Source of the DNA: Alphaproteobacteria bacterium
GTDB taxonomy: Bacteria; Pseudomonadota; Alphaproteobacteria; Rs-D84
Direction: 5' to 3'
Assembly: GCA_015062485.1 (NCBI GenBank)
Contig: SUUO01000003.1
Location: 28,026-92,025, forward strand
DNA: 64,000 bases
Position numbers and translations under genes: made by a program. Positions 3,056 through 56,586 of this stretch are shown piece by piece. Every line of letters starts with the position of its first letter. Positions within the stretch are counted from its first letter, which is position 1. A model generated the notes under the pieces. It did no database searches and had not been told where the DNA came from. It saw only the letters and a program-made list of their open reading frames with translations.

Positions 3056-3082
3056 AAAATCCCGCATTATGCGGGATTTTTT
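3054..3082. terminator. bidirectional intrinsic terminator
   Basis: AAAAAAT-CCCGCA tta TGCGGG-ATTTTTT between convergent rpiB and 3082..3834. Confidence 0.85.
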
Positions 3083-3834
3083 CATTCGTTACACGGCGCG
3101 CTGTACAGATATGTACCAACGTCATCAGAATATACATTCCCCGCGCGCGAATAAAGCCAGCACGTCCCCAGGGCAGCATCACTTAGATGCGTTACTTCTT
3201 CGCACGCTGGCGCCGTCCTCAAACTCGTCCTACACGTTCCGTATGACGACGCGTCATAGTCCCTAAAAATCAAGCCCTGGCGTTCAATTGCAAGCCCACC
3301 AAGTCCAGACGGCGCCTCGTCTGGGAACATCTGGTCTTCTATGTCACTGCCACGATATGTCATCCATTTGTTCATTTCTGTAAAAAGATACACACCAAGA
3401 GTTTGCTTCTCTAATATGCTAGCTTTGCACGCATATGCGCAATTATACATACATGAATCCAAATCAGCGCTTGTATCCGCCCCCGTTTTTTCTGGAAACC
3501 ACTGTGTCGCATATGGGCGTATCATTTTACACCAACAATAATTACCCGTTTGTGTGGGCGCCGCAAGATGTTTTGCAAATGTACCCATACTTGTGAATCT
3601 CGTCGACGAACACGCTGAAATTATTCTGGCATCTGTAAGATATGTATTTACAGAACCAGCAACCGTGAAACTATGATGCGACGGCCAAATCAATTCTCCA
3701 ACTGTATAAGTGTCATTTGCCGTCCAACCAAATGCCGTACTCCCAAGAAAATCGGCCCCAATTGACACTTGGGTAATCGATGCCGCAAATGCGGGTTCTA
3801 ATACCAACATATATAATATAAATATTTTCTTCAT
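3082..3834 (-). CDS. secreted Cys-rich protein, fused L-domain + S-domain
   Basis: Signal peptide MKKIFILYMLVLEPAFA. L signature: NYCWCKM..QW..DSCMYNCAYAC. C-terminal S signature: CWLYSRAGNVYSDDVGTYLYSAPC. GGGGGG RBS. 10 Cys in the mature part. Confidence 0.85.
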   Translation of the reverse strand: MKKIFILYMLVLEPAFAASITQVSIGADFLGSTAFGWTANDTYTVGELIWPSHHSFTVAGSVNTYLTDARIISACSSTRFTSMGTFAKHLAAPTQTGNYCWCKMIRPYATQWFPEKTGADTSADLDSCMYNCAYACKASILEKQTLGVYLFTEMNKWMTYRGSDIEDQMFPDEAPSGLGGLAIERQGLIFRDYDASSYGTCRTSLRTAPACEEVTHLSDAALGTCWLYSRAGNVYSDDVGTYLYSAPCNE

Positions 3835-12769: not shown

Positions 12770-13042
12770 ATGAAACGAATTATATTTTTATTGGTGTGTA
12801 TGCCAGGGTTGGCGCACGCCGCCGCCCCCAGTACCACCTGTCCATCTGGATACATCGCTATAAACGAACCTGCCATTACAATTGCAACCACGTGCCCCAG
12901 TGGCACAACCGCCATTGGCACGGCGGAATCGTGTTTGGAGTCCAGCCCATCTGGGGATTGTATAATGTACGCGCCGGCGGGCGTCAGTTACACCGACAGT
13001 CCCGGCACATATGAATTTACCGAACCGTGTGCGATGCAGTAA
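12770..13042 (+). CDS. secreted Cys-rich S-family protein
   Basis: RBS AAGGTGG. Signal peptide, then AAAPSTTCPSGYIAI ... CIMYAPAGVSYTDSPGTYEFTEPC. 5 Cys in the mature part. Confidence 0.9.
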   Translation: MKRIIFLLVCMPGLAHAAAPSTTCPSGYIAINEPAITIATTCPSGTTAIGTAESCLESSPSGDCIMYAPAGVSYTDSPGTYEFTEPCAMQ

Positions 13043-16480: not shown

Positions 16481-16506
16481 AAAAACGCCCGATTGGGCGT
16501 TTTTTT
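16479..16506. terminator. bidirectional intrinsic terminator
   Basis: A-run-CGCCC gatt GGGCG-T-run between convergent genes. Confidence 0.85.
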
Positions 16507-17242
16507 AATCCAACTTAAAACAGCCTGAACGCAACTCCCTGGCACGACGGCGCAGTTTTCGAAAAATCCGTGTATTGCGCGCCATTTTAAATGCCATTGT
16601 CATCGGGGTTATTGGCTGACTAATCCTGGTATACATACTGGCTTTGCGAATACGCTGTAATGAATCCAGATATGAATCTATAAAATCATACGGTTTGTTG
16701 TGCCGCAATATATAACGACATTGACGCATTATCACACGATAACGCCGATATGCCGCAACACGGATTTGTCGCAATTGATTATCCGGAATTCGCACCGGCG
16801 TCACAATCCACACGTCACGCAACAAAGAATAATGCGAACCATACATACAATCCTTGTGCAGGGGATTACACACATCACGACAATCAACCAGTTTTATATC
16901 AACCCCGCGACCAAATATTGATATATTAAACATACGCATCCACGCCCATTTTAATGCACGCAAAATTGTCCCTTCGTCCCCCGGCATTGTTGCGCGCAAA
17001 CGTGACAAATCCGCCACAATACAGACATCAACATCACTGAATTTATCCCAGTAATAATTTGTTATTGATCCGTGGATAAAAATATCCACAACATCAGATT
17101 TATCAATCGGCAATTTTGCAACCACCGACAAATATCGCACAAATTCCCAAACCGCCATTTGCAACGTCTGGTTAACCAACGGATTTAAATGCACGCGCGA
17201 TTCCCACACCCGCGGCACCAGGGCCCTGTGATACACGAACAT
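16505..17242 (-). CDS. Pol-beta-superfamily nucleotidyltransferase-like protein (paralog 1)
   Basis: IHGSITNYYWDKFSDVDVCIVAD fits the hG[GS]-x(9-13)-DhD NTase signature. About half of residues are identical to 44340..45074. ATG 17242 sits 10 nt after the S-gene stop with a GGGGG RBS. ORF 16505..17515 trimmed. Confidence 0.7.
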   Translation of the reverse strand: MFVYHRALVPRVWESRVHLNPLVNQTLQMAVWEFVRYLSVVAKLPIDKSDVVDIFIHGSITNYYWDKFSDVDVCIVADLSRLRATMPGDEGTILRALKWAWMRMFNISIFGRGVDIKLVDCRDVCNPLHKDCMYGSHYSLLRDVWIVTPVRIPDNQLRQIRVAAYRRYRVIMRQCRYILRHNKPYDFIDSYLDSLQRIRKASMYTRISQPITPMTMAFKMARNTRIFRKLRRRARELRSGCFKLD

Positions 17243-17252
17243 ATTTTGCCCC

Positions 17253-17576
17253 CTATGACGAAGATTCTTCCATTTCACAGGCCTCGGTAAATTCGTACGT
17301 GCCAGACGCATCCGTATAAGATACGCCCGCCGGCGCATACATAAAACAATTTCCCGCAGGATTCGCCACCAGGCACGACGAAACCGTCCCCGCACTAACA
17401 TACCCCGACGGACACGACGTATTTGCCAGGATAACATCCGGCTTGCTGATTGTGATATACCCGGTGGGACATTCCGTTGCCGGCGCGGCGGCATCAGTAT
17501 TATAAATCGGCACAAAATACGACATTATAAATAATAACGTCACCCGCCAATCCGCAAAAAATATTGATTTTTTCAT
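17253..17576 (-). CDS. secreted Cys-rich S-family protein
   Basis: AAAPATECPTGYITI ... CFMYAPAGVSYTDASGTYEFTEAC. 5 Cys in the mature part. Confidence 0.85.
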   Translation of the reverse strand: MKKSIFFADWRVTLLFIMSYFVPIYNTDAAAPATECPTGYITISKPDVILANTSCPSGYVSAGTVSSCLVANPAGNCFMYAPAGVSYTDASGTYEFTEACEMEESSS

Positions 17577-17598
17577 TGTTTGCTCTTTTTTATTGTAA

Positions 17599-18045
17599 TT
17601 AAATTGCATCAACTAAAATTTCATCCATCAAACTCTCCATTTCTAAACCACTAGCACAGCGTTGAGCGCAATATTTTGCACAGCTTAATGAATCGGTAAA
17701 TGTGTGATTTAGCATCCATTTTGATAAAAATGGCGTTAATACACGACACCAACATGCGGTTAAATTCACGCTTGTTGCATCAGCGCTAACAACAAACAAT
17801 TCTTCATCAGAAAGAACATCGAATCGTCCATACCCCTGGTCTTGGGCGCAAACTCCAATGCCTTTTACGGAGATTTCATTGGAGGTATCATAATTACACG
17901 TCGCTCTCCAACCTATTATTGAGTTTTCTCCACCCATACCAGAGCGACATTCAGTGCCAGCCGCCAATCCCACGCATTGCACCACCGCCATTGCGGGGAC
18001 GGTCAAAATTGCACCAACCGCGGTTAAAGTTAAAATTTTTTTCAT
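17599..18045 (-). CDS. secreted Cys-rich L-family protein
   Basis: RBS AAGGAG. MKKILTLTAVGAILTVPAMA signal peptide. ACWCRVLTPFLSKWML ... LSCAKYCAQRC. 9 Cys. ORF 17599..18162 trimmed. Confidence 0.9.
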   Translation of the reverse strand: MKKILTLTAVGAILTVPAMAVVQCVGLAAGTECRSGMGGENSIIGWRATCNYDTSNEISVKGIGVCAQDQGYGRFDVLSDEELFVVSADATSVNLTACWCRVLTPFLSKWMLNHTFTDSLSCAKYCAQRCASGLEMESLMDEILVDAI

Positions 18046-18379
18046 TGTCTTATCTCCTTTCTGCTTTAAAAAAAAACAAAACCACACGTAAAACGGGTGG
18101 TCAGGAGGTTCGAAACAATTATAAGGAATTGTGTGCTTATTTTGTGCGGACACACCGCCCATTATTCACAACCCTCCTGACCTTTTATAGCCAGGAGACA
18201 TTTCATCCAGGACCACAAACGAAAAAACACGCCATATGGCGCGCCCGGTTCGGATATTTCGTTTTGTTCCAGACGCCTTATATCGGGTTTCGACACCCCA
18301 TCACGACCATCGATCGTAACAAGCAAATTATAACCAAATATTTCATCCAACGCAAATACTTAGATAAATAAAAGTTTAT
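18046..18379 (-). promoter_or_regulatory. leader module copy 3
   Basis: Read on - strand: -35 TTGCGT (18350-18355), 17-nt spacer, -10 TATAAT (18327-18332). A/T motif 18362-18379. Key 7-mers 18110-18116 (tCGAAac) and 18287-18293 (gtTTCGa). Confidence 0.8.
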
Positions 18380-18556
18380 CGCAGGAAGTACAAACAGAAT
18401 TTTTTGCAAAAAAAATTCTGTCATCCCGTGGCTTGACCACGGGACCCAGGTCATATTTCCTTTTTATTTGCTTTCACCTGGATTCCGGGGTCAAGCCCCG
18501 GAATGACAAAAACGTAAAACGTTTTTGTTAAATAAACTTTTATTTTTATAAGTATT
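18362..18556. repeat. MITE-like palindromic element (copy M1) bounded by inverted AGATAAATAAAAGTTTA motifs
   Basis: Four consecutive hairpins: CAGAATTTTTTGCAAAAAAAATTCTG, CCCGTGG cttga CCACGGG, ATTCCGGGG tcaag CCCCGGAAT, ACAAAAACG taaaa CGTTTTTGT. Near-identical to 25658..25865 in reverse orientation. Confidence 0.8.
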
Positions 18557-18625
18557 ATGTATTCATTAATTGAACTTTGCACTATGCACTTTGAACTTTA
18601 ATAAAAATCCCCCGTTGGGGGATTT

Positions 18626-24601: not shown

Positions 24602-24630
24602 AATTCCCCGCCGAATGGCGGGGTTTTATT
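24600..24630. terminator. bidirectional intrinsic terminator
   Basis: CCCCGCC gaat GGCGGGG with flanking A/T runs, between rnhA and the S gene. Confidence 0.8.
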
Positions 24631-24901
24631 ATGACATTGGGCACGCATCGGTGTATTCGTATGTGCCACTGTCATCGGTATACGACATACCCGCCGGCGC
24701 ATACATTATACACGACCCCGCGGGACTGGATACCAAACACGATTCCGCCACGCCTACGGAAATTGTGCCACTGGGACAACTGGTCGCGATTGTAAGATAT
24801 TCTTCATCAATCGCGATATATCCCGCGGGACACGACGTTGACGGCGCGGCGGCACGCGCCACCATTGGCACAAAACAAAATAAAAACATCAATCGTTTCA
24901 T
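24629..24901 (-). CDS. secreted Cys-rich S-family protein
   Basis: RBS AAGGAGG overlapping the L-gene stop. AAAPSTSCPAGYIAI ... CIMYAPAGMSYTDDSGTYEYTDAC. 5 Cys in the mature part. Confidence 0.9.
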   Translation of the reverse strand: MKRLMFLFCFVPMVARAAAPSTSCPAGYIAIDEEYLTIATSCPSGTISVGVAESCLVSSPAGSCIMYAPAGMSYTDDSGTYEYTDACPMS

Positions 24902-40255: not shown

Positions 40256-41947
40256 TTACATTGATTCTGGGACACGCAATCCCATCAAATCAATTGCACG
40301 CAACAATGTTTCACGCGCAACATTCACGATATGCAGACGCGCCGCCTTTACCCCATCCACTACATCATCACGCAAAATCGGACAATGGTGATAGAATGTA
40401 TTTATATCCTGGGCCAAATCGTATGTATAGTTTGCCAACAAATCGGTTGCACGACGCGCAAAAGCATTTTCAAGCACACGTTCAAAATCCATCACACGCA
40501 ATAACAAATTGCGTTCTTCGGCCTGTAATGCGCCGGCATCAGCCATCGCAACAACGCCCATATCGGCTGCCTTTTTTGCAACCGCATTCAAACGCACCGC
40601 CGTGTATAAAATGTATGGACCGGTACGCCCCTCGAACTGGGTGACCGAATCAACATCAAATACATAGTCTGATTTTACATCGTGCATCAAATCATTAAAC
40701 TTCAACGCGGCCAACGCAATCATTTCAACCGTTTCATCAGATAATTCTTTGCCCGATTCGGTCGCGCGCGCCCGCACAGAATCCGCAACCATATCCATCA
40801 TCTGGGCCAAACTTGGCACATCACCATCACGTGTTTTAAATGGCTTGCCATCGGCACCGGTTATTGTACCGAATCCAATATGTTGCAAATTCGCAGAATC
40901 CATACCCGCCATTTTTGCCGCACGAAATACCTGGGTAAAGTGTAAATTCTGACGACTGTCGGTGAAATAGACAATATCATTTGGATTGTCGGTCGTTGTA
41001 CGATAATAAATCGCCGCCAAATCCGCCGCCGCATACGTCTGGGCACCGGTGCTGGATCGCCACATAACCGGCGGCATTGGCGCGGTATCCGTATCCAATT
41101 TTACCGGAATAACGTCGGCACCATCGTCGTGCACAATCAGGTTCTTTTCATCCAATATTTTCTGAACCGCCGGAACATATTCCGCAACCAGGCGTTCACC
41201 CTTGTTTTCATCAAACGGCAATATATTCAAGCGCACCAAAATATCCGATATCTGCGACAAAGACATTGGCGCAAATTTATTATAAATATCCAAGTATTCA
41301 GCATTACCATTTTGCAATTCAACCGTGACACGCTGTGCACGTTCCAGCCATTCTTTATCTTCTTTGGCGCGTGCGGACGATGCCGGATATATCACGTTAA
41401 TATCATCTGCATTCTTTGGCATACCGTGCTCCAAAATCCACGCAATAATCAGCCCCATAGGACGCCCCCAGTCGCCCATATGATTATAAGACTTGGTTTT
41501 ATGCCCCAACGCACGCGCAATGCGATTAAACGTATCGCCAACAACCGTCGTACGCAAATGCCCAATATGCAGGGCTTTGCCGATATTATAACTGCCGTAA
41601 TCCATATCGATGGTCAAGGGCGCGGCCTTTTCACTTGCGACGTTATATTTTTCTGGGGCCACCAAGAAATCATTCTTCAATGTGATATTAATGAAGCCCG
41701 GCCCCGCAATCGTTGCATTTTCTACGAATGGAATTTCACAAATTTTGGGTAAAATCATTTCTGCGATGTCACGTGGCGACTTCTTTAATGGTCGCGCCAG
41801 AATCATTGCAACATTTGTCGAAAAATCCCCAAAATCACGGATTTTTGGTGTTTCAATCGCAACGTCTGTTGGCAAAGAATCCGCCAAACCATCAATTTCC
41901 ATTAACTTGGATTTTACATTCTCAGAAATAATTTTATAGACATTCAT
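40256..41947 (-). CDS. argS: arginine--tRNA ligase
   Basis: NIGKALHIGHLR (HIGH) and a DALR anticodon-binding domain. ORF 40256..42049 trimmed to ATG 41947 because the extension overlaps tRNA-Pro. Confidence 0.93.
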   Translation of the reverse strand: MNVYKIISENVKSKLMEIDGLADSLPTDVAIETPKIRDFGDFSTNVAMILARPLKKSPRDIAEMILPKICEIPFVENATIAGPGFINITLKNDFLVAPEKYNVASEKAAPLTIDMDYGSYNIGKALHIGHLRTTVVGDTFNRIARALGHKTKSYNHMGDWGRPMGLIIAWILEHGMPKNADDINVIYPASSARAKEDKEWLERAQRVTVELQNGNAEYLDIYNKFAPMSLSQISDILVRLNILPFDENKGERLVAEYVPAVQKILDEKNLIVHDDGADVIPVKLDTDTAPMPPVMWRSSTGAQTYAAADLAAIYYRTTTDNPNDIVYFTDSRQNLHFTQVFRAAKMAGMDSANLQHIGFGTITGADGKPFKTRDGDVPSLAQMMDMVADSVRARATESGKELSDETVEMIALAALKFNDLMHDVKSDYVFDVDSVTQFEGRTGPYILYTAVRLNAVAKKAADMGVVAMADAGALQAEERNLLLRVMDFERVLENAFARRATDLLANYTYDLAQDINTFYHHCPILRDDVVDGVKAARLHIVNVARETLLRAIDLMGLRVPESM

Positions 41948-43156: not shown

Positions 43157-43985
43157 ATTTATGGGCGTTGAATATGCCCGTGGCGCAACGGCAACAATTC
43201 GCAACGATGGCCCCGCAATGGCACCACGCGCGGTTCAACAAATGTTCCCAGACACAGATTGGATAATGATTGCCGCCGACAACGTTTCACCAACGGTCGC
43301 GGCCCAGGACCGATTCGGTGATGCGTTTAATATTCACAAGCGTGTCTATGCCGCCACACCACGCGGTCGACATATTATGATTGGTGGCGATCATTCTGTA
43401 AACTTTGGACATTTCGCGGCCATACGTGACGGATTCCCGGATGAAGATTTGTGCCTGGTCTATATCGATGCGCACCTGGATATTCATACACCCGAATCAT
43501 CACGGCTTCAGGCATCCGGCGCACCACACGGCACAAATGTGCGTGCATTATTGGGCGATGGTGATGAACGCTGGCTGGGGCTGATAAAAAACAAGCCCGC
43601 GTTAAAACCACAAAACTTATTTTACATTGGCACACGCGCGTTCGAGCCCGCCGAAATAGAATTCGCCCGCGCCCAAAACATACATATTCGCAGCGCATCT
43701 GAATTACAAAACGAATCGGATTGGACGGACACCGTCCGCGAAATTCGCCGAAAAATCGGCACACGCCCATTTGTTATATCTTTTGATTTTGATGTAATCG
43801 ATCCAACCGTGTTTCGTGACGTCTGGGTACCGGAACCAAACGGCATATCATTGGATGCCGCCAAATACTTTGTATCGGAATTTAGTGACGCAGACGGCTT
43901 TGAATTTGTGGAATACGCCCCCAGTGGCGACGAAAAATCCGCACAAATCGTGCACGATTTAATATCTATGGTTGCGAACGATTGA
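43146..43985 (+). CDS. ureohydrolase (arginase/agmatinase/formiminoglutamase family)
   Basis: Mn-binding motifs GGDHSV, IDAHLDIH, SFDFDVIDP. The start (43146 or 43161) overlaps the upstream gene end. Confidence 0.85.
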   Translation: MMIEFMGVEYARGATATIRNDGPAMAPRAVQQMFPDTDWIMIAADNVSPTVAAQDRFGDAFNIHKRVYAATPRGRHIMIGGDHSVNFGHFAAIRDGFPDEDLCLVYIDAHLDIHTPESSRLQASGAPHGTNVRALLGDGDERWLGLIKNKPALKPQNLFYIGTRAFEPAEIEFARAQNIHIRSASELQNESDWTDTVREIRRKIGTRPFVISFDFDVIDPTVFRDVWVPEPNGISLDAAKYFVSEFSDADGFEFVEYAPSGDEKSAQIVHDLISMVAND

Positions 43986-44172
43986 TTTGTTCACACGTAC
44001 GATTATGCCGATAAATATTGCGTGCTAAATCATCACTGATAACATCCCAATCCGTCGCCCGCCCATAAATTGGATTACATACCATTGGTGCACAGGCATT
44101 ATTCGGCAATGGTGTATTTTTCGTGCAAGACACCACGAATATCAGCCACCCCACGTTTAAGAGTTTCCACAT
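43966..44172 (-). CDS. small lipoprotein, o-spanin (Rz1)-like
   Basis: RBS GGGGA. Lipobox LIFVVSC. Pattern C..P......D....SD...R.I..HNR.C. Starts inside the upstream ORF in another frame. Confidence 0.45.
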   Translation of the reverse strand: MWKLLNVGWLIFVVSCTKNTPLPNNACAPMVCNPIYGRATDWDVISDDLARNIYRHNRTCEQINRSQP

Positions 44173-44329
44173 TTACATCCCCTATGATTTTAATTGTTTC
44201 ACTTTGCACATATCCACTTTGCTGTGCCGCGTCGGCACGACATTGCTGTCGCCCCAGACGCACCCCCGCGACATAAGAAAAAAATATGGCGGTCACCCCC
44301 GCCATAAAAACAAATAAATAAGTTTTCAT
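44099..44329 (-). CDS. small N-terminally anchored protein, i-spanin (Rz)-like
   Basis: One N-terminal TM (YLFVFMAGVTAIFFSYVAG) followed by a charged helical region. Overlaps the lipoprotein gene by 74 nt. Confidence 0.4.
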   Translation of the reverse strand: MKTYLFVFMAGVTAIFFSYVAGVRLGRQQCRADAAQQSGYVQSETIKIIGDVNVETLKRGVADIRGVLHEKYTIAE

Positions 44330-44339
44330 ATTAGTCACA

Positions 44340-45074
44340 CTACTTTAATTGAAATTTTCTACTGCGTTGTTCTTTGGACAATCGTCGCAATCGCCGCAAA
44401 ATACCAGTATTACGAACCATTTTAAATGCCATAGACAATGATGTTATCGGCTGTTTATACTGCGTATACATACTTTGCGTACGAATTTTTTGCAAGTTTA
44501 CCAAATACGTATCTATATATTCCGGCAACATCTTCTGGCGCAACATAGCGTAACATTGGCGCATTATTGCGCGCTTTTTTACATATGCCGCCCGACGTAT
44601 TGTACGCAATTCCGATGCACTTAATCGAACAGGCGTATTAACCCAACAATCATTCACCAAAGAATACGATGGCCCAACACATTTATATCTTTCATCAAAA
44701 CCGTCATTGATATCGACTATACTTAAATCGACGCTACGACCATACAGCGAAAACCAAAACGTACGTTTCCACGTATGTTTTAGTGAATTTGTTATTACCG
44801 TAACATCTGTCCCATTCAGCATACTGCGCACACGCGACAAATCCGCAACAATACGTAAATCAATATCACTGTATTTATCCCAATAATAGTTAGTTATCGA
44901 CCCATGCACCAACGCATCTTGAATATCAGATGGCGAAATTGGCAATTTGACAACATCACCCAGATACCGCACAAATTCCCCCGCAATCATCATCAGTGAT
45001 TGTCGCACCAATGGATTTATTTTTGTCGGACTGTCCCAAACACGTGGCGCCAGCGTTTTATGATACCGAAACAT
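44340..45074 (-). CDS. Pol-beta-superfamily nucleotidyltransferase-like protein (paralog 2)
   Basis: VHGSITNYYWDKYSDIDLRIVAD. Collinear with 16505..17242. ATG is 11 nt after the upstream stop. Confidence 0.7.
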   Translation of the reverse strand: MFRYHKTLAPRVWDSPTKINPLVRQSLMMIAGEFVRYLGDVVKLPISPSDIQDALVHGSITNYYWDKYSDIDLRIVADLSRVRSMLNGTDVTVITNSLKHTWKRTFWFSLYGRSVDLSIVDINDGFDERYKCVGPSYSLVNDCWVNTPVRLSASELRTIRRAAYVKKRAIMRQCYAMLRQKMLPEYIDTYLVNLQKIRTQSMYTQYKQPITSLSMAFKMVRNTGILRRLRRLSKEQRSRKFQLK

Positions 45075-45085
45075 CCCATCCGCCC

Positions 45086-45631
45086 CTATTCTGTTGTTGT
45101 GGTTGAAGACGCTTCCTCTTCACCAGCGTAGGTCTTATAACTATTTTCTACGGGCGAAGATGTTGCGCCATCATAATAACAATTATCGGTAAAAATAAAT
45201 GTTCCCGTTTCATCAGAACGCTCAACATCTGCTTTCTTATAACATTCGTTTGCACTGACCGCACCTGTATCACTAGTATATTGAGCAGGGCAACTGGAAC
45301 AACTTCCGCCATTATTATACTGCCCACTATCACACGGCCGGCAAGAGTCGTGATACCATCTAAACAGATACCGTCCATTTGCCCAATATGATTGACATGT
45401 AGATTTTCTTAATTTTGTCGGATCATCTGGACAAAGACAATCGATATATCCGTTTGTACCCGTATAAAAATCTTCTGTCCTTGTTGCGCTAATGCAGTAT
45501 GAATCAGCATAAATTGCGGTGTCCCCTTCCCAACATCTAATTTTTACCGTCGTTGTTTCAAACGCGAAAGACTTTGAATATCCCAATGTCATCATCGCCG
45601 TAAAACCCGCCACGAAATAAGTTTTATTCAT
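45086..45631 (-). CDS. secreted Cys-rich protein with GCC2_GCC3/ephrin-receptor-like Cys repeat and S-type C-terminal motif
   Basis: Signal peptide. CRPCDSGQYNNGGSCSSCPAQYTSDTGAVSANEC. ...DETGTFIFTDNCYY. Acidic/Ser-Thr tail. Confidence 0.8.
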   Translation of the reverse strand: MNKTYFVAGFTAMMTLGYSKSFAFETTTVKIRCWEGDTAIYADSYCISATRTEDFYTGTNGYIDCLCPDDPTKLRKSTCQSYWANGRYLFRWYHDSCRPCDSGQYNNGGSCSSCPAQYTSDTGAVSANECYKKADVERSDETGTFIFTDNCYYDGATSSPVENSYKTYAGEEEASSTTTTE

Positions 45632-45934
45632 ATTTCAATCTCCTGTTTGTTAAAAACAAAACCACGCGTTTTTCACGAGTGGTCAGGAGGTTGGAAACAA
45701 TCAAGAAGTATTGTGCTGCTTATTCAATATATTCACAGCCCCCCTGACACTAAATGCTCAGGAGATATTTGTCATTTGGTTTTCACACGAAAAAACACGC
45801 CATTGGCGCGTCGGATTTCGTTTCCAAACGCTTCTTGCACGGGTTTCCACACCCCATTATGGCAAACCACCATAACAAGTATATTATAACTGAATGTTTT
45901 TCTTTGTTCAATACTTAGATAAATAAAAGTTTAT
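45632..45934 (-). promoter_or_regulatory. leader module copy 5
   Basis: Read on - strand: -35 TTGAAC (45906-45911), 17-nt spacer, -10 TATAAT (45883-45888). A/T motif 45917-45934. Key 7-mers 45692-45698 (tGGAAac) and 45843-45849 (gtTTCCa). Differs from copy 4 at only about ten positions over ~190 nt by eye. Confidence 0.8.
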
Positions 45935-45935
45935 G

Positions 45936-46030
45936 TTAGTGGTTAGTGTAAGTGATTAGTGATGGCACTATGATGTGCGGCATTTGCCACACACAAACAC
46001 TATCCACTAGCCACTCACACTAATCACTAA
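45936..46030. repeat. inverted pair of TTAGTG-type short-period repeats next to the rho terminator
   Basis: TTAGTGGTTAGTGTAAGTGATTAGTGATGG (45936-45965) versus CCACTAGCCACTCACACTAATCACTAA (46004-46030). The same tail occurs at 7548-7577, 25875-25908 and 49242-49270. Confidence 0.7.
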
Positions 46031-56316: not shown

Positions 56317-56586
56317 TTAGGTCAGCGGACACGATGCGGTATATTCATACGTTCCTTTTTCGTCTGTAAAACTCATACCGGCGGGAACATACATCCAACA
56401 CCCATTTGTCGCATTGGTCAAACACGATGTTAGTGTACCGGTCGAAACATAGCCAGCAGAACAGGCATCCGATAAAATAAAATCAGAACGCGTAACCGCG
56501 ACATACCCCGACGGACACGATGTCGACGGCGCCGCAGCGTATGCACACATAGGTATAAACGCAATTATAATTGCTATTTTTTTCAT
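56317..56586 (-). CDS. secreted Cys-rich S-family protein
   Basis: ATG 56586 with RBS AGGGGTG. AAAPSTSCPSGYVAV ... CWMYVPAGMSFTDEKGTYEYTASC. 5 Cys in the mature part. Confidence 0.88.
   Translation of the reverse strand: MKKIAIIIAFIPMCAYAAAPSTSCPSGYVAVTRSDFILSDACSAGYVSTGTLTSCLTNATNGCWMYVPAGMSFTDEKGTYEYTASCPLT

What the first reader, a model, noticed from the sequence alone, without database searches (positions are those of the whole stretch)
16505..17242. Paralogous nucleotidyltransferase-like genes translationally coupled to two Cys-rich cassettes
16505-17242 and 44340-45074 are collinear paralogs, with roughly half their residues identical by eye. Both carry (I/V)HGSITNYYWDK(F/Y)SD(V/I)D..IVAD, which fits the Pol-beta-superfamily signature (G-S, then DxD ~12 residues later), and a basic C-terminus. 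Each starts ~10 nt after the stop of the last secreted-protein gene of a leader-driven cassette (after S gene 17253-17576, and after 45086-45631). A cytoplasmic NTase-fold enzyme co-transcribed with secreted Cys-rich proteins is an unexpected combination. Possible roles include modification, nucleotide signalling, or a toxin/antitoxin-like function, or it may be a phage-derived module.
Basis: partly seen in the sequence, partly recalled or inferred. Interest (0 to 1): 0.6.

Follow-up and report, generated by a model that had tools for sequence, protein, structure and literature searches.

The report
Phage-type nucleotidyltransferase paired with serine-tailed secreted proteins
Two related, apparently active enzymes of a little-known phage-type nucleotidyltransferase family each sit directly behind a gene for an exported cysteine-rich protein that, unlike its many relatives in the genome, ends in a short acidic serine/threonine tail; the pairing recurs in distant relatives, so the enzyme may chemically tag that tail, which has not been tested.

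Summary
Window 16505-17242(-) and 44340-45074(-) encode 245- and 244-aa paralogs that are 53% identical. Both have an intact Pol-beta NTase signature (hGS, DxD, third Asp) and a confident two-domain model.

The family is centred on phages (PHROG 36119, function unknown). It has about 3,250 representative clusters and no solved or characterised member. The genome is a 0.94-Mb Candidatus Enterousia genome.

Both genes are the last gene of a cassette that is missing from the closest relative. Only about 1 in 6 genomes of the order carry the NTase.

The new point is the upstream gene. In every related locus I could read in this genus, it is a signal-peptide Cys-rich protein. Several clades at only 30-40% identity show the same arrangement.

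That protein usually ends in an acidic stretch followed by an oligo-Ser/Thr tail. The 22 family members in this genome that have no NTase behind them lack the tail and end at a terminator.

One distant clade has a GT2 glycosyltransferase between the partner gene and the NTase.

Best reading (about 0.4, inferred): the NTase is a dedicated cytoplasmic modifier of the tail, acting before Sec export. Rivals are an RNA-directed NTase and a phage-conflict module.

The parts
16505..17242 (-). NTase paralog 1 (P0001, 245 aa), S-partner clade
   Evidence: dN/dS 0.10 against its ortholog in L012.
17253..17576 (-). S-type exported Cys-rich partner (P0040, 107 aa). It ends ...DASGTYEFTEACEMEESSS, i.e. the family end C-x-M-E plus an extra ESSS, and has no terminator behind it.
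17599..18045 (-). First gene of cassette 1: 148-aa signal-peptide Cys-rich protein (P0041), no Pfam or PHROG hit
18046..18400 (-). Shared promoter plus long 5' leader of cassette 1 (approximate limits). Leader terminator-like hairpin at 18225-18246.
   Evidence: Sequence compared. The RNA itself was studied by earlier agents and was not re-tested here.
16481..16504 (-). Intrinsic-terminator-like hairpin plus T-run directly after NTase 1 (aaaaaaacgcccaatcgggcgttttttt)
   Evidence: Read directly. The pattern scan did not list it.
16487..18599 (-). Cassette 1 as an indel: 2,113 bp absent from the closest relative G093 (flanks 96-98% identical) and from G183; present in G087
44340..45074 (-). NTase paralog 2 (P0002, 244 aa), clade with the 181-aa partner type
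   Evidence: dN/dS 0.08 against L008.
45086..45631 (-). 181-aa exported Cys-rich partner (P0039). It has weak Ephrin_rec_like/TNFR-like matches and ends ...YAGEEEASSTTTTE. It is the only ORF in the genome with a Ser/Thr run of 4 or more at its C-terminus.
45632..45950 (-). Promoter (hexamers at 45883-45911) and 5' leader of cassette 2. Leader terminator-like hairpin at 45794-45812.
45951..46024 (.). TAGTG-rich long imperfect palindrome at the upstream edge of cassette 2, one of 5 such elements in the genome
44343..46024 (-). Cassette 2 as an indel: 1,682 bp absent from G093 and G183, where rho's terminator abuts the spanin-like pair. It is flanked by a 5-bp direct repeat TAGTG.

Best explanation
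Each gene encodes a catalytically intact, cytoplasmic Pol-beta-superfamily nucleotidyltransferase. It has an N-terminal NTase domain and a C-terminal helical domain, and belongs to an uncharacterised family centred on large phages. In Candidatus Enterousia and related tiny-genome Alphaproteobacteria the enzyme has become the fixed downstream partner of an exported Cys-rich protein. It is translated from the same message, starting a few nucleotides after the partner's stop codon.

The partner differs from its many NTase-less relatives in one respect: it carries an acidic stretch followed by an oligo-Ser/Thr run at its extreme C-terminus.

I propose that the very basic NTase docks on this acidic tail in the cytoplasm. 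It would then transfer a nucleotide-derived group (most simply an NMP in O-linkage, as ANT-type enzymes do on hydroxyl groups) to the Ser/Thr hydroxyls. This would happen before the C-terminus, the last part of the protein to cross, passes through Sec. In some lineages a GT2 glycosyltransferase would elaborate the modification.

Shown here: fold and motifs, purifying selection, phage ancestry, the gene pairing, the tail association, and the accessory cassette status. Inferred: co-transcription, the tail as substrate, and the chemistry.
For: Enzyme: paralogs 53% identical. hGS, DxD and a third Asp are invariant in 35 homologs. AF2 pLDDT 91 with NTase plus helical domains. All best PDB fold hits are NTases, including two-domain O-adenylyltransferases of ~250 aa. 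dN/dS is 0.03-0.23.

Pairing: in 19/19 related loci the gene directly upstream on the same strand is a signal-peptide Cys-rich protein at a gap of 0-37 nt. The same holds in another genus (L044) and in several clades at 30-40% identity from human-gut, animal-gut and sludge metagenomes. All full-length relatives of the 181-aa partner found in 151 genomes are followed by an NTase. The NTase tree groups by partner type: 4 label changes, the minimum possible, reached by 0/200 shuffles.

Tail: the 22 family genes in this genome without an NTase end C-x-[ML]-x and are followed at once by a terminator. The 2 linked genes carry an acidic plus Ser/Thr extension and no terminator. A Ser/Thr run of 3 or more in the last 10 aa occurs in 22/41 linked partners against 13/905 ORFs of the genome (Fisher 1e-24). 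The tails use TCN, AGY and ACN codons, so the conservation is at protein level.

Charge match: the Enterousia-clade NTases carry net +15 to +25. The three phage homologs without such partners carry -11 to +10.

GT2: in L063 and L073 a family-2 glycosyltransferase (Pfam E 5e-13) lies between the tailed Cys-rich gene and the NTase. Its only PDB sequence hit is 5hea, GalT1 (E 2e-3). From memory, that enzyme takes part in cytoplasmic glycosylation of a serine-rich adhesin.
Against: There is no direct evidence that the tail is a substrate.

An AF2 run on a natural in-frame readthrough fusion left the tail disordered (pLDDT <50), so it gave no sign of docking.

Not all linked partners have a clear Ser/Thr run. 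One Enterousia clade ends C-T-S-[VA], and one distant clade ends GDFRAGxxY.

In L051 the two Cys-rich genes are deleted, yet the NTase is intact with dN/dS 0.03 against L052. The enzyme may therefore work without a partner encoded next to it.

The phage homologs have no such partner.

A bulky O-linked nucleotide would have to pass SecYEG.

Extreme basicity more usually signals nucleic-acid binding.

The loci are related by descent, so the Fisher P value overstates independence.
Confidence: 0.4

Rival explanations
1. RNA-directed NTase. The enzyme adds untemplated nucleotides to an RNA 3' end (the cassette mRNA or leader, a tRNA or another RNA). It sits in the cassette only because it regulates or repairs that RNA, or because it shares its expression signal.
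For: Net charge is comparable to ribosomal proteins, with a basic C-terminal helix. There are weak profile matches to poly(A)/uridylyl-transferase palm domains (MTPAP-like, Gld-2, URT1, CutA). In Cr30 the homolog lies between tRNA genes and next to replication genes. The orphan NTase in L051 is under strong constraint without the partner genes. Template-independent NTases for RNA-end repair are common in large phages (PMC7824862).
Against: This does not explain why the upstream protein, and only it, carries the acidic Ser/Thr tail, nor the GT2 inserted in one clade. There is no match to the RlaP or CCA-adding families and no RNA ligase or repair neighbour. The leader RNA is present at about 24 cassettes, but the NTase at only 2.
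Confidence: 0.2
2. Conflict module. The NTase is a phage-derived defence, counter-defence or addiction gene that rides in variable cassettes. Its link to surface-protein genes reflects shared mobility and selection at the phage-host interface, not a shared biochemical pathway.
For: The family is centred on phages. The NTase occurs in only 25/151 genomes of the order, with several decayed remnants. Both copies lie in indel cassettes. Tandem arrays and fused double NTases exist. A serine recombinase lies next to the pair in L044. A reverse-transcriptase gene sits in a cassette with the same boundary elements.
Against: No toxin or effector partner is present. PADLOC has only sub-threshold hits. 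There is no HEPN neighbour as in MntA-HepT systems. The tail association and the co-divergence with partner type go beyond hitch-hiking.
Confidence: 0.2
3. Small-molecule O-nucleotidyltransferase of the ANT/Lnu type, inactivating an antibiotic or another hydroxyl-bearing metabolite met in the gut.
For: It has the same two-domain size and layout as ANT(4'), AadA and AAD(9), which are among the best PDB fold hits. One phage homolog is annotated 'aminoglycoside nucleotidyltransferase' in its record.
Against: TM-scores are only 0.22-0.28 and E values exceed 0.03. There is no Pfam or NCBIfam resistance-family match. It does not explain the conserved pairing, the tail or the phage distribution.
Confidence: 0.07
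4. Nucleotide second-messenger synthase (CD-NTase-like), signalling in connection with envelope proteins.
For: CdnC/CdnD/CdnE appear among the weak hits.
Against: Those hits have probability 0.2-0.3 and E values above 0.07. No effector, Cap or receptor gene is adjacent. The architecture is much smaller than CD-NTases.
Confidence: 0.04

Closest known systems
PHROG 36119 and its phage members (e.g. Caulobacter phage Cr30 AGS81163, Synechococcus phage S-CRM01 g125, Maribacter phage Colly_1 gp25, Lak megaphage ORFs)
   Same: Homologous over the full length at ~25% identity. Shared motifs are YHxxLxPKxW, G(S/G)xxNYxW..SDIDL, a third acidic residue, YSLxxxxWxxxP and AFKxLRNxG. The predicted fold matches (BFVD TM ~0.75).
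   Different: Function is unknown in phages too. The phage copies have no Cys-rich exported neighbour and lack the strongly basic C-terminus. Some are fused in tandem or to deaminase, cytidylyltransferase-like or M23 peptidase domains.
Two-domain O-nucleotidyltransferases of the ANT family (ANT(4')/KNTase, AadA, AAD(9))
   Same: About 250 aa, with an N-terminal Pol-beta NTase domain and a C-terminal helical domain. They transfer NMP to a hydroxyl group. From general knowledge, KNTase works as a dimer, which would fit the tandem and fused NTases seen in this family.
   Different: Only weak structural similarity (E > 0.03, TM 0.22-0.28). No sequence-family match. The proposed acceptor here is a protein tail, not an antibiotic.
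Protein-adenylylating Pol-beta NTases (MntA antitoxin, GlnE, the AMPylation domain of Legionella DrrA/SidM)
   Same: Pol-beta fold enzymes that put NMP on a protein side-chain hydroxyl. MNT chains are the best PDB hits. Relatives show sub-threshold SidM_N matches.
   Different: MntA is a ~100-140-aa minimal NTase paired with a HEPN toxin, which is absent here. The known acceptors are Tyr or Thr of cytoplasmic proteins, not the Ser tail of an exported protein.
Cytoplasmic modification of exported adhesins by an adjacent enzyme gene (Aah/AIDA-I, TibC/TibA, HMW1C/HMW1; GtfA/B and GalT1 for serine-rich repeat adhesins), from general knowledge
   Same: The logic is the same: a cytoplasmic transferase is encoded next to, and expressed with, its Sec-exported substrate. 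Ser-rich regions are the acceptors in the SRRP case. A GT2 whose only PDB hit is GalT1 sits in the module of one clade.
   Different: Those enzymes are glycosyltransferases. No NTase-fold enzyme is known in that role, and the link here is inferred.

Membership tests
Pol-beta superfamily nucleotidyltransferases | hG[GS] motif, then [DE]h[DE]h about 10-13 residues later | tested here: met
   H57-G58-S59 and D70-x-D72 are invariant or nearly invariant in 35 homologs and kept in a 61-member broad alignment.
Pol-beta superfamily nucleotidyltransferases | Third catalytic carboxylate on a later strand, and the alpha/beta NTase fold | tested here: met
   D116 is invariant. The AF2 model has pLDDT 91. 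Best PDB fold hits are MNT, ANT, poly(A) polymerase and TUT7. Pfam NTP_transf_2 scores 21.0 bits against a cut-off of 21 for P0001, but 12.9 bits for P0002.
PHROG 36119 (phage NTase-like family, function unknown) | Full-length profile match | tested here: met
   E 1e-13 and 2e-19 over ~230 of 247 profile positions.
MntA/MNT antitoxin (type VII TA) | Minimal NTase of ~100-140 aa with an adjacent HEPN toxin gene | tested here: not met
   The protein is 245 aa with an extra helical domain. The neighbours are Cys-rich exported proteins and a terminator, with no HEPN gene. On a relative, the NCBIfam MntA model scores 16 bits against a cut-off of 60.
CD-NTase / CBASS | cGAS/DncV-like fold with an adjacent effector (and Cap) genes | tested here: not met
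   There are only weak hits (E 1.8 by sequence; Foldseek probability 0.2-0.3), no PADLOC CBASS match, and no effector gene.
RlaP (RNA-ligase-associated Pol-beta NTase) and CCA-adding enzymes | Match to the family profile, and an RNA ligase or tRNA-repair neighbourhood | tested here: not met
   Neither family appears in the Pfam scan at E <= 1. No RNA ligase is nearby. The family description is from PMC7824862.
ANT-type aminoglycoside/lincosamide nucleotidyltransferases | Sequence or close structural membership in the ANT families | tested here: not met
   No Pfam or NCBIfam hit. Foldseek E 0.04-0.2, TM 0.22-0.28. Only the domain layout is shared.
Polyvalent-protein Pol-beta NTase of conjugative elements (Iyer et al. 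2017) | Minimal four-strand NTase, usually fused to ArdC-N, in Firmicute T4SS contexts | tested here: not met
   The description was read in PMC5512222. Here the protein is a stand-alone two-domain protein in phages and Alphaproteobacteria, with no ArdC or T4SS context. No direct sequence comparison was made.

The most novel reading that the evidence does not exclude
The NTase puts a nucleotide, or starts a phosphodiester-linked chain, on the oligo-Ser tail of Sec-exported Cys-rich surface proteins. That would be a previously unknown class of nucleotide-tagged exported proteins in bacteria. The enzyme would have been recruited from phages, is extended by a GT2 in some lineages, and is multiplied into arrays in others. 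It may be used to anchor or diversify the cell surface of partner-dependent tiny-genome gut bacteria.
Probability: 0.3. Interest if true: 0.85.

Novelty: new variant of a known kind. Interest (0 to 1): 0.62.

Why it matters
The NTase family is large (about 3,250 clusters at 50% identity), is common in big phages, and has no known function. Its fixed pairing with a distinctively tailed exported protein gives the first concrete and cheap hypothesis to test: mass spectrometry of a co-expressed pair. If the tail is the substrate, this would be a new post-translational modification route for secreted proteins. It would also be a clue to how Candidatus Enterousia builds and varies its surface. These are uncultured gut bacteria of under 1 Mb that devote many genes to Cys-rich exported proteins. 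If the tail is not the substrate, the module is still a clear case of a phage enzyme domesticated into variable surface-protein cassettes.

Tried and rejected
1. Sequence families: NCBIfam gave no hit. PADLOC gave only sub-threshold hits. Pfam gave only the generic NTase domain.

2. PDB profile searches with a narrow and a broad alignment gave only NTase-core matches at E >= 7e-4.

3. Foldseek against the PDB gave nothing at E <= 1e-3. No solved relative assigns a substrate.

4. Phage neighbourhoods (Cr30, S-CRM01, Colly_1) show no conserved partner.

5. Domain fusions in long relatives are heterogeneous (dCMP deaminase, cytidylyltransferase-like, M23 peptidase, tandem NTase) and not diagnostic.

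6. An AF2 run on a natural in-frame readthrough fusion of partner and NTase (L014, TAA read as Gly) tested whether the tail becomes ordered. The tail stayed below pLDDT 50, and the tool returns no coordinates, so the result is inconclusive. A first alignment that included partner rows was misaligned and was discarded.

7. I first took the small TM-protein/lipoprotein pair downstream of NTase 2 for part of a phage lysis remnant with the NTase. I rejected this because the pair is a core single-copy feature of the genus (77/81 genomes) and the NTase cassette was inserted upstream of it.

8. A DGR explanation for the reverse transcriptase seen near an S gene on another contig was rejected, because no template/variable repeat was found.

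10. Literature searches found no description of the pairing.

Full report
**Observation.** Window 16505-17242(-) and 44340-45074(-) translate to 245 and 244 residues. They align end to end with 129/245 identities, E 6e-89. Both carry HGS...NYYWDK(F/Y)SD(V/I)D. In an alignment of 35 homologs, H57, G58, N62-Y-Y-W-D66, S69, D70, D72 and D116 are invariant. That is the hG[GS] / DxD / third-carboxylate set of Pol-beta NTases. Pfam NTP_transf_2 scores exactly at its cut-off for P0001 and below it for P0002. An AlphaFold2 model has mean pLDDT 91, with an alpha/beta N-terminal domain and a four-helix C-terminal domain. The NTase start codons lie 10 and 11 nt after the stops of signal-peptide Cys-rich genes. 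A G-run follows each stop, and no terminator-like site on that strand lies between the genes.

**Organism.** The genome is 0.94 Mb in 17 contigs and about 97% complete. The related loci come from Candidatus Enterousia and unnamed Alphaproteobacteria MAGs from animal guts. The literature describes these as order Rs-D84, with genomes under 1 Mb that lack most biosynthetic pathways (PMC12306168).

**What family the enzyme belongs to.**
- The only specific profile match is PHROG 36119, function unknown (E 2e-19).
- tblastn finds full-length homologs at about 25% identity in 43-45 of 50,697 phage records: freshwater T4-like cyanophages, Caulobacter phage Cr30, Maribacter phages, Lak megaphages and other huge phages. 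Nearly all are annotated as hypothetical.
- The model matches predicted structures of uncultured Caudovirales proteins at E 4e-17 to 1e-12, TM about 0.75.
- Against solved structures, only the NTase core matches, and weakly: MNT antitoxins, ANT/AadA/AAD(9), poly(A) polymerases and TUT7, best E 8e-3. Profile searches of PDB sequences say the same.
- A profile search of 1.84 billion representatives finds 3,253 clusters at E <= 1e-3, of which only 33 reach <= 1e-30. The Enterousia-type proteins are thus a small offshoot of a large family that, on the phage evidence above, I take to be mostly viral; that library itself gives no source or annotation.
- Longer relatives are tandem double NTases or carry unrelated extra domains.
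- The family is not RlaP, CCA-adding, CD-NTase, MntA or ANT by the tests listed under membership.

**Status in the genome.**
- The NTase is accessory. It is found in 25 of 151 genomes of the order (24 in this genus, 1 in another). Most have one copy, and several hold decayed fragments.
- Both window copies are under purifying selection: dN/dS 0.10 and 0.08 against their orthologs.
- They belong to different clades of the NTase tree, so they are not a recent local duplication.
- Both lie in cassettes that the closest relative (G093, flanks 95-98% identical) lacks. Window 44343-46024 (1,682 bp) is missing there, and rho's terminator abuts the next gene. In the window this stretch is flanked by a 5-bp direct repeat, TAGTG.
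- Window 16487-18599 (2,113 bp) is likewise missing from G093 and G183 but present in G087.
- Each cassette comprises a promoter, a long leader, one or two exported-protein genes and the NTase. Cassette 1 also has its own terminator.

**The partner.**
- I could read 19 loci holding an Enterousia-type NTase. In every one, the gene directly upstream on the same strand encodes a signal-peptide protein with 5-16 cysteines and a shared C-terminal domain ending [ST]D(D/E)xG(T/S)(Y/F)x(Y/F)...C, at a gap of 0-37 nt.
- The same domain defines a large family in this genome: about 24 genes, most encoding ~90-aa precursors.
- Of these, the 22 with no NTase behind them end three or four residues after the last Cys (C-[AP]-[ML]-x), and an intrinsic terminator follows immediately.
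- The two NTase-linked genes have no terminator and carry an extension...CEMEESSS and ...YAGEEEASSTTTTE.
- Linked partners in relatives end EEESTTTTAA, GVSSSSTD, DASSSTTS, DDDEVSSSSS and EEESSSTSQGA. A more divergent Enterousia clade ends C-T-S-[VA].
- Ser is encoded by both TCN and AGY codons, and Ser and Thr interchange. The composition is therefore conserved at the protein level, not the DNA level.

**Generality.**
- In another genus (L044) the order is S-like gene, then a 196-aa Cys-rich gene ending ...ASSSSSV, then two NTases. A serine recombinase gene lies next to them.
- A metagenome scan with more distant NTases (30-40% identity) returned 36 loci. Several clades again show an S-like ~100-aa gene, then a 183-203-aa Cys-rich protein, then one to three NTases. 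Those Cys-rich proteins end ESSSSSSSSQA, DSSSSSSSEE, SSSSSTEA, DSSSSSEA, AASSSSSEVQ or ASSSSSPAA.
- In an AT-rich clade (L063, L073) a family-2 glycosyltransferase (Pfam E 5e-13) sits between a Cys-rich secreted protein with a Ser/Thr/Tyr-rich acidic end and the NTase. Its only PDB sequence match is 5hea, GalT1 (E 2e-3). As I recall, that enzyme acts in cytoplasmic glycosylation of a serine-rich adhesin. The match is weak and GT2 is a vast family.
- Another clade has a 125-aa, 3-Cys secreted partner ending GDFRAGxxY, with no Ser run.
- Overall, a Ser/Thr run of 3 or more in the last ten residues occurs in 22 of 41 linked partners against 13 of 905 ORFs of this genome (Fisher 1e-24). The only ORF in the genome with a run of 4 or more is the partner of NTase 2. 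The loci share ancestry, so the P value is only a guide.
- All full-length relatives of the 181-aa partner found in 151 genomes of the genus carry the tail and are followed by an NTase. Two of these sit at contig ends, where only the first ~60 NTase residues are visible.
- On the NTase tree, partner type needs the minimum possible number of changes (4; shuffled mean 12.2; 0 of 200 shuffles as low). Enzyme and partner have therefore travelled together for a long time. The partner classes were assigned by eye.

**Charge.** The Enterousia-clade NTases carry net +15 to +25, and +6 to +11 over the last 30 residues. Three phage homologs carry -11 to +10, and +1 to +3 over the last 30 residues. Within this proteome the two proteins rank in the top ~2% for positive charge, alongside ribosomal proteins. 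The partner tails put acidic residues immediately before the Ser/Thr run.

**Interpretation.** Three claims are well supported:
- This is an active Pol-beta NTase of a phage-centred, uncharacterised family.
- It forms a long-lived, co-inherited module with an exported Cys-rich protein.
- The partner is specifically marked by an acidic oligo-Ser/Thr C-terminus.

The mechanism is inferred. My preferred reading (about 0.4) is that the NTase modifies the tail hydroxyls in the cytoplasm before export. This would parallel two known patterns: ANT-type enzymes nucleotidylylate hydroxyl groups, and cytoplasmic transferases encoded next to AIDA-I, TibA, HMW1 or serine-rich adhesins modify those proteins before Sec export (general knowledge). 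The GT2 insertion fits a modification pathway.

Four points count against this reading:
- The AF2 readthrough-fusion test showed no ordering of the tail.
- Some partner clades lack a Ser run.
- In L051 the two Cys-rich genes are deleted in an otherwise collinear context, yet the NTase stays intact with dN/dS 0.03.
- Extreme basicity is more typical of RNA-binding proteins.

The main rivals are an RNA-tailing enzyme (0.2) and a phage-conflict gene riding in variable cassettes (0.2). ANT-like small-molecule modification and second-messenger synthesis are unlikely.

**Relation to earlier notes of this scan.** One earlier agent reported, in another genome, Cys-rich exported genes followed by one to eight copies of a phage-related NTase. 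I met what is probably the same arrangement independently in L078, a triplet next to rpsB, and I extend that note with the tail signature, the indel status and the GT2 clade. Notes on the shared leader RNA set the context. I did not re-test the RNA.

**Limits.** There are no coordinates from the structure tool. Start codons of distant NTases and the gaps quoted for them are my own ORF calls. Signal peptides were judged by eye.

Noticed in passing
window 43966-44329 (-): Overlapping gene pair directly downstream of NTase 2: a 76-aa protein with an N-terminal TM segment, and a 68-aa lipoprotein (lipobox VVSC). The lipoprotein matches PHROG 1275 'Rz-like spanin' (E 1.3e-7); the TM protein matches PHROG 1026 only weakly (E 0.04). 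The lipoprotein gene is present in 77 of 81 genomes of the genus, nearly always as a single copy. It therefore looks like a domesticated spanin-like pair and is not part of the NTase cassette.
   Followed up: partly
window 45951-46024, and G000 C11:~1290-1400, C11:~40950-41060, C12:~67520-67640, C12:~400-520: Five copies of a ~100-nt imperfect palindrome built from TAGTG/CACTA repeats around gtgtgcggcraatgccgcaca. Each lies between a terminator and the conserved cassette promoter (aaacttttatttatct). Cassette 2 is flanked by a 5-bp TAGTG direct repeat relative to the empty site in G093. These may be recombination or insertion sites for the cassettes.
   Followed up: partly
G000 C11:1471-2496 (+), outside the window: A 341-aa reverse-transcriptase-like protein (MKRYKNLWDAFISAENFDLAARRAV...; identified by eye, no profile search run). 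Its gene sits behind the same palindrome and promoter, with the palindrome repeated on its far side, right after an S-family gene. No template/variable repeat was found, so it is not an obvious DGR.
   Followed up: partly
whole genome G000; in the window at 12770-13042 (+), 17253-17576 (-), 24629-24901 (-) and 56317-56586 (-), plus C-terminal-domain copies at 3082-3834 (-) and 45086-45631 (-): About 24 genes encode secreted Cys-rich proteins that share the end DxSGTYEFTDxC. Most are ~90-aa precursors beginning MKRIIFLL...AAPSTSCPSGYIA. This is a very large paralog family for a 0.94-Mb genome.
   Followed up: partly
L038 (G169:C33), slot between rho and the spanin-like pair: In this relative, the same intergenic slot that holds cassette 2 in the window holds about 1.2 kb of different sequence that includes a copy of the leader. 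The slot therefore seems to be a hotspot for cassette exchange.
   Followed up: no
L063:788-3159 and L073:1415-3726: An AT-rich metagenomic clade has a three-gene module: a Cys-rich secreted protein, a GT2 glycosyltransferase with a hydrophobic C-terminus, and the NTase. The genes overlap or are separated by about 10 nt.
   Followed up: partly
L051 versus L052: These are two strains with the same context (a ~600-aa gene upstream, a ~300-aa gene downstream; neither was profiled). In L051 about 1 kb holding both Cys-rich genes is deleted with 7-nt microhomology at the junction, which leaves an intact orphan NTase (dN/dS 0.03).
   Followed up: partly
window 18430-18535 (-): Two GC-rich hairpins (gtcattccggggcttgaccccggaatcc and cctgggtcccgtggtcaagccacgggatgac) lie at the upstream edge of cassette 1, inside the indel. 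They resemble REP-like palindromic elements.
   Followed up: no
L044:2923-3561 (-): A serine recombinase (resolvase/invertase-type N-terminus MVYGYIRVSTDHQ...; identified by eye) lies directly downstream of the tandem NTase pair in the one positive genome of another genus.
   Followed up: no
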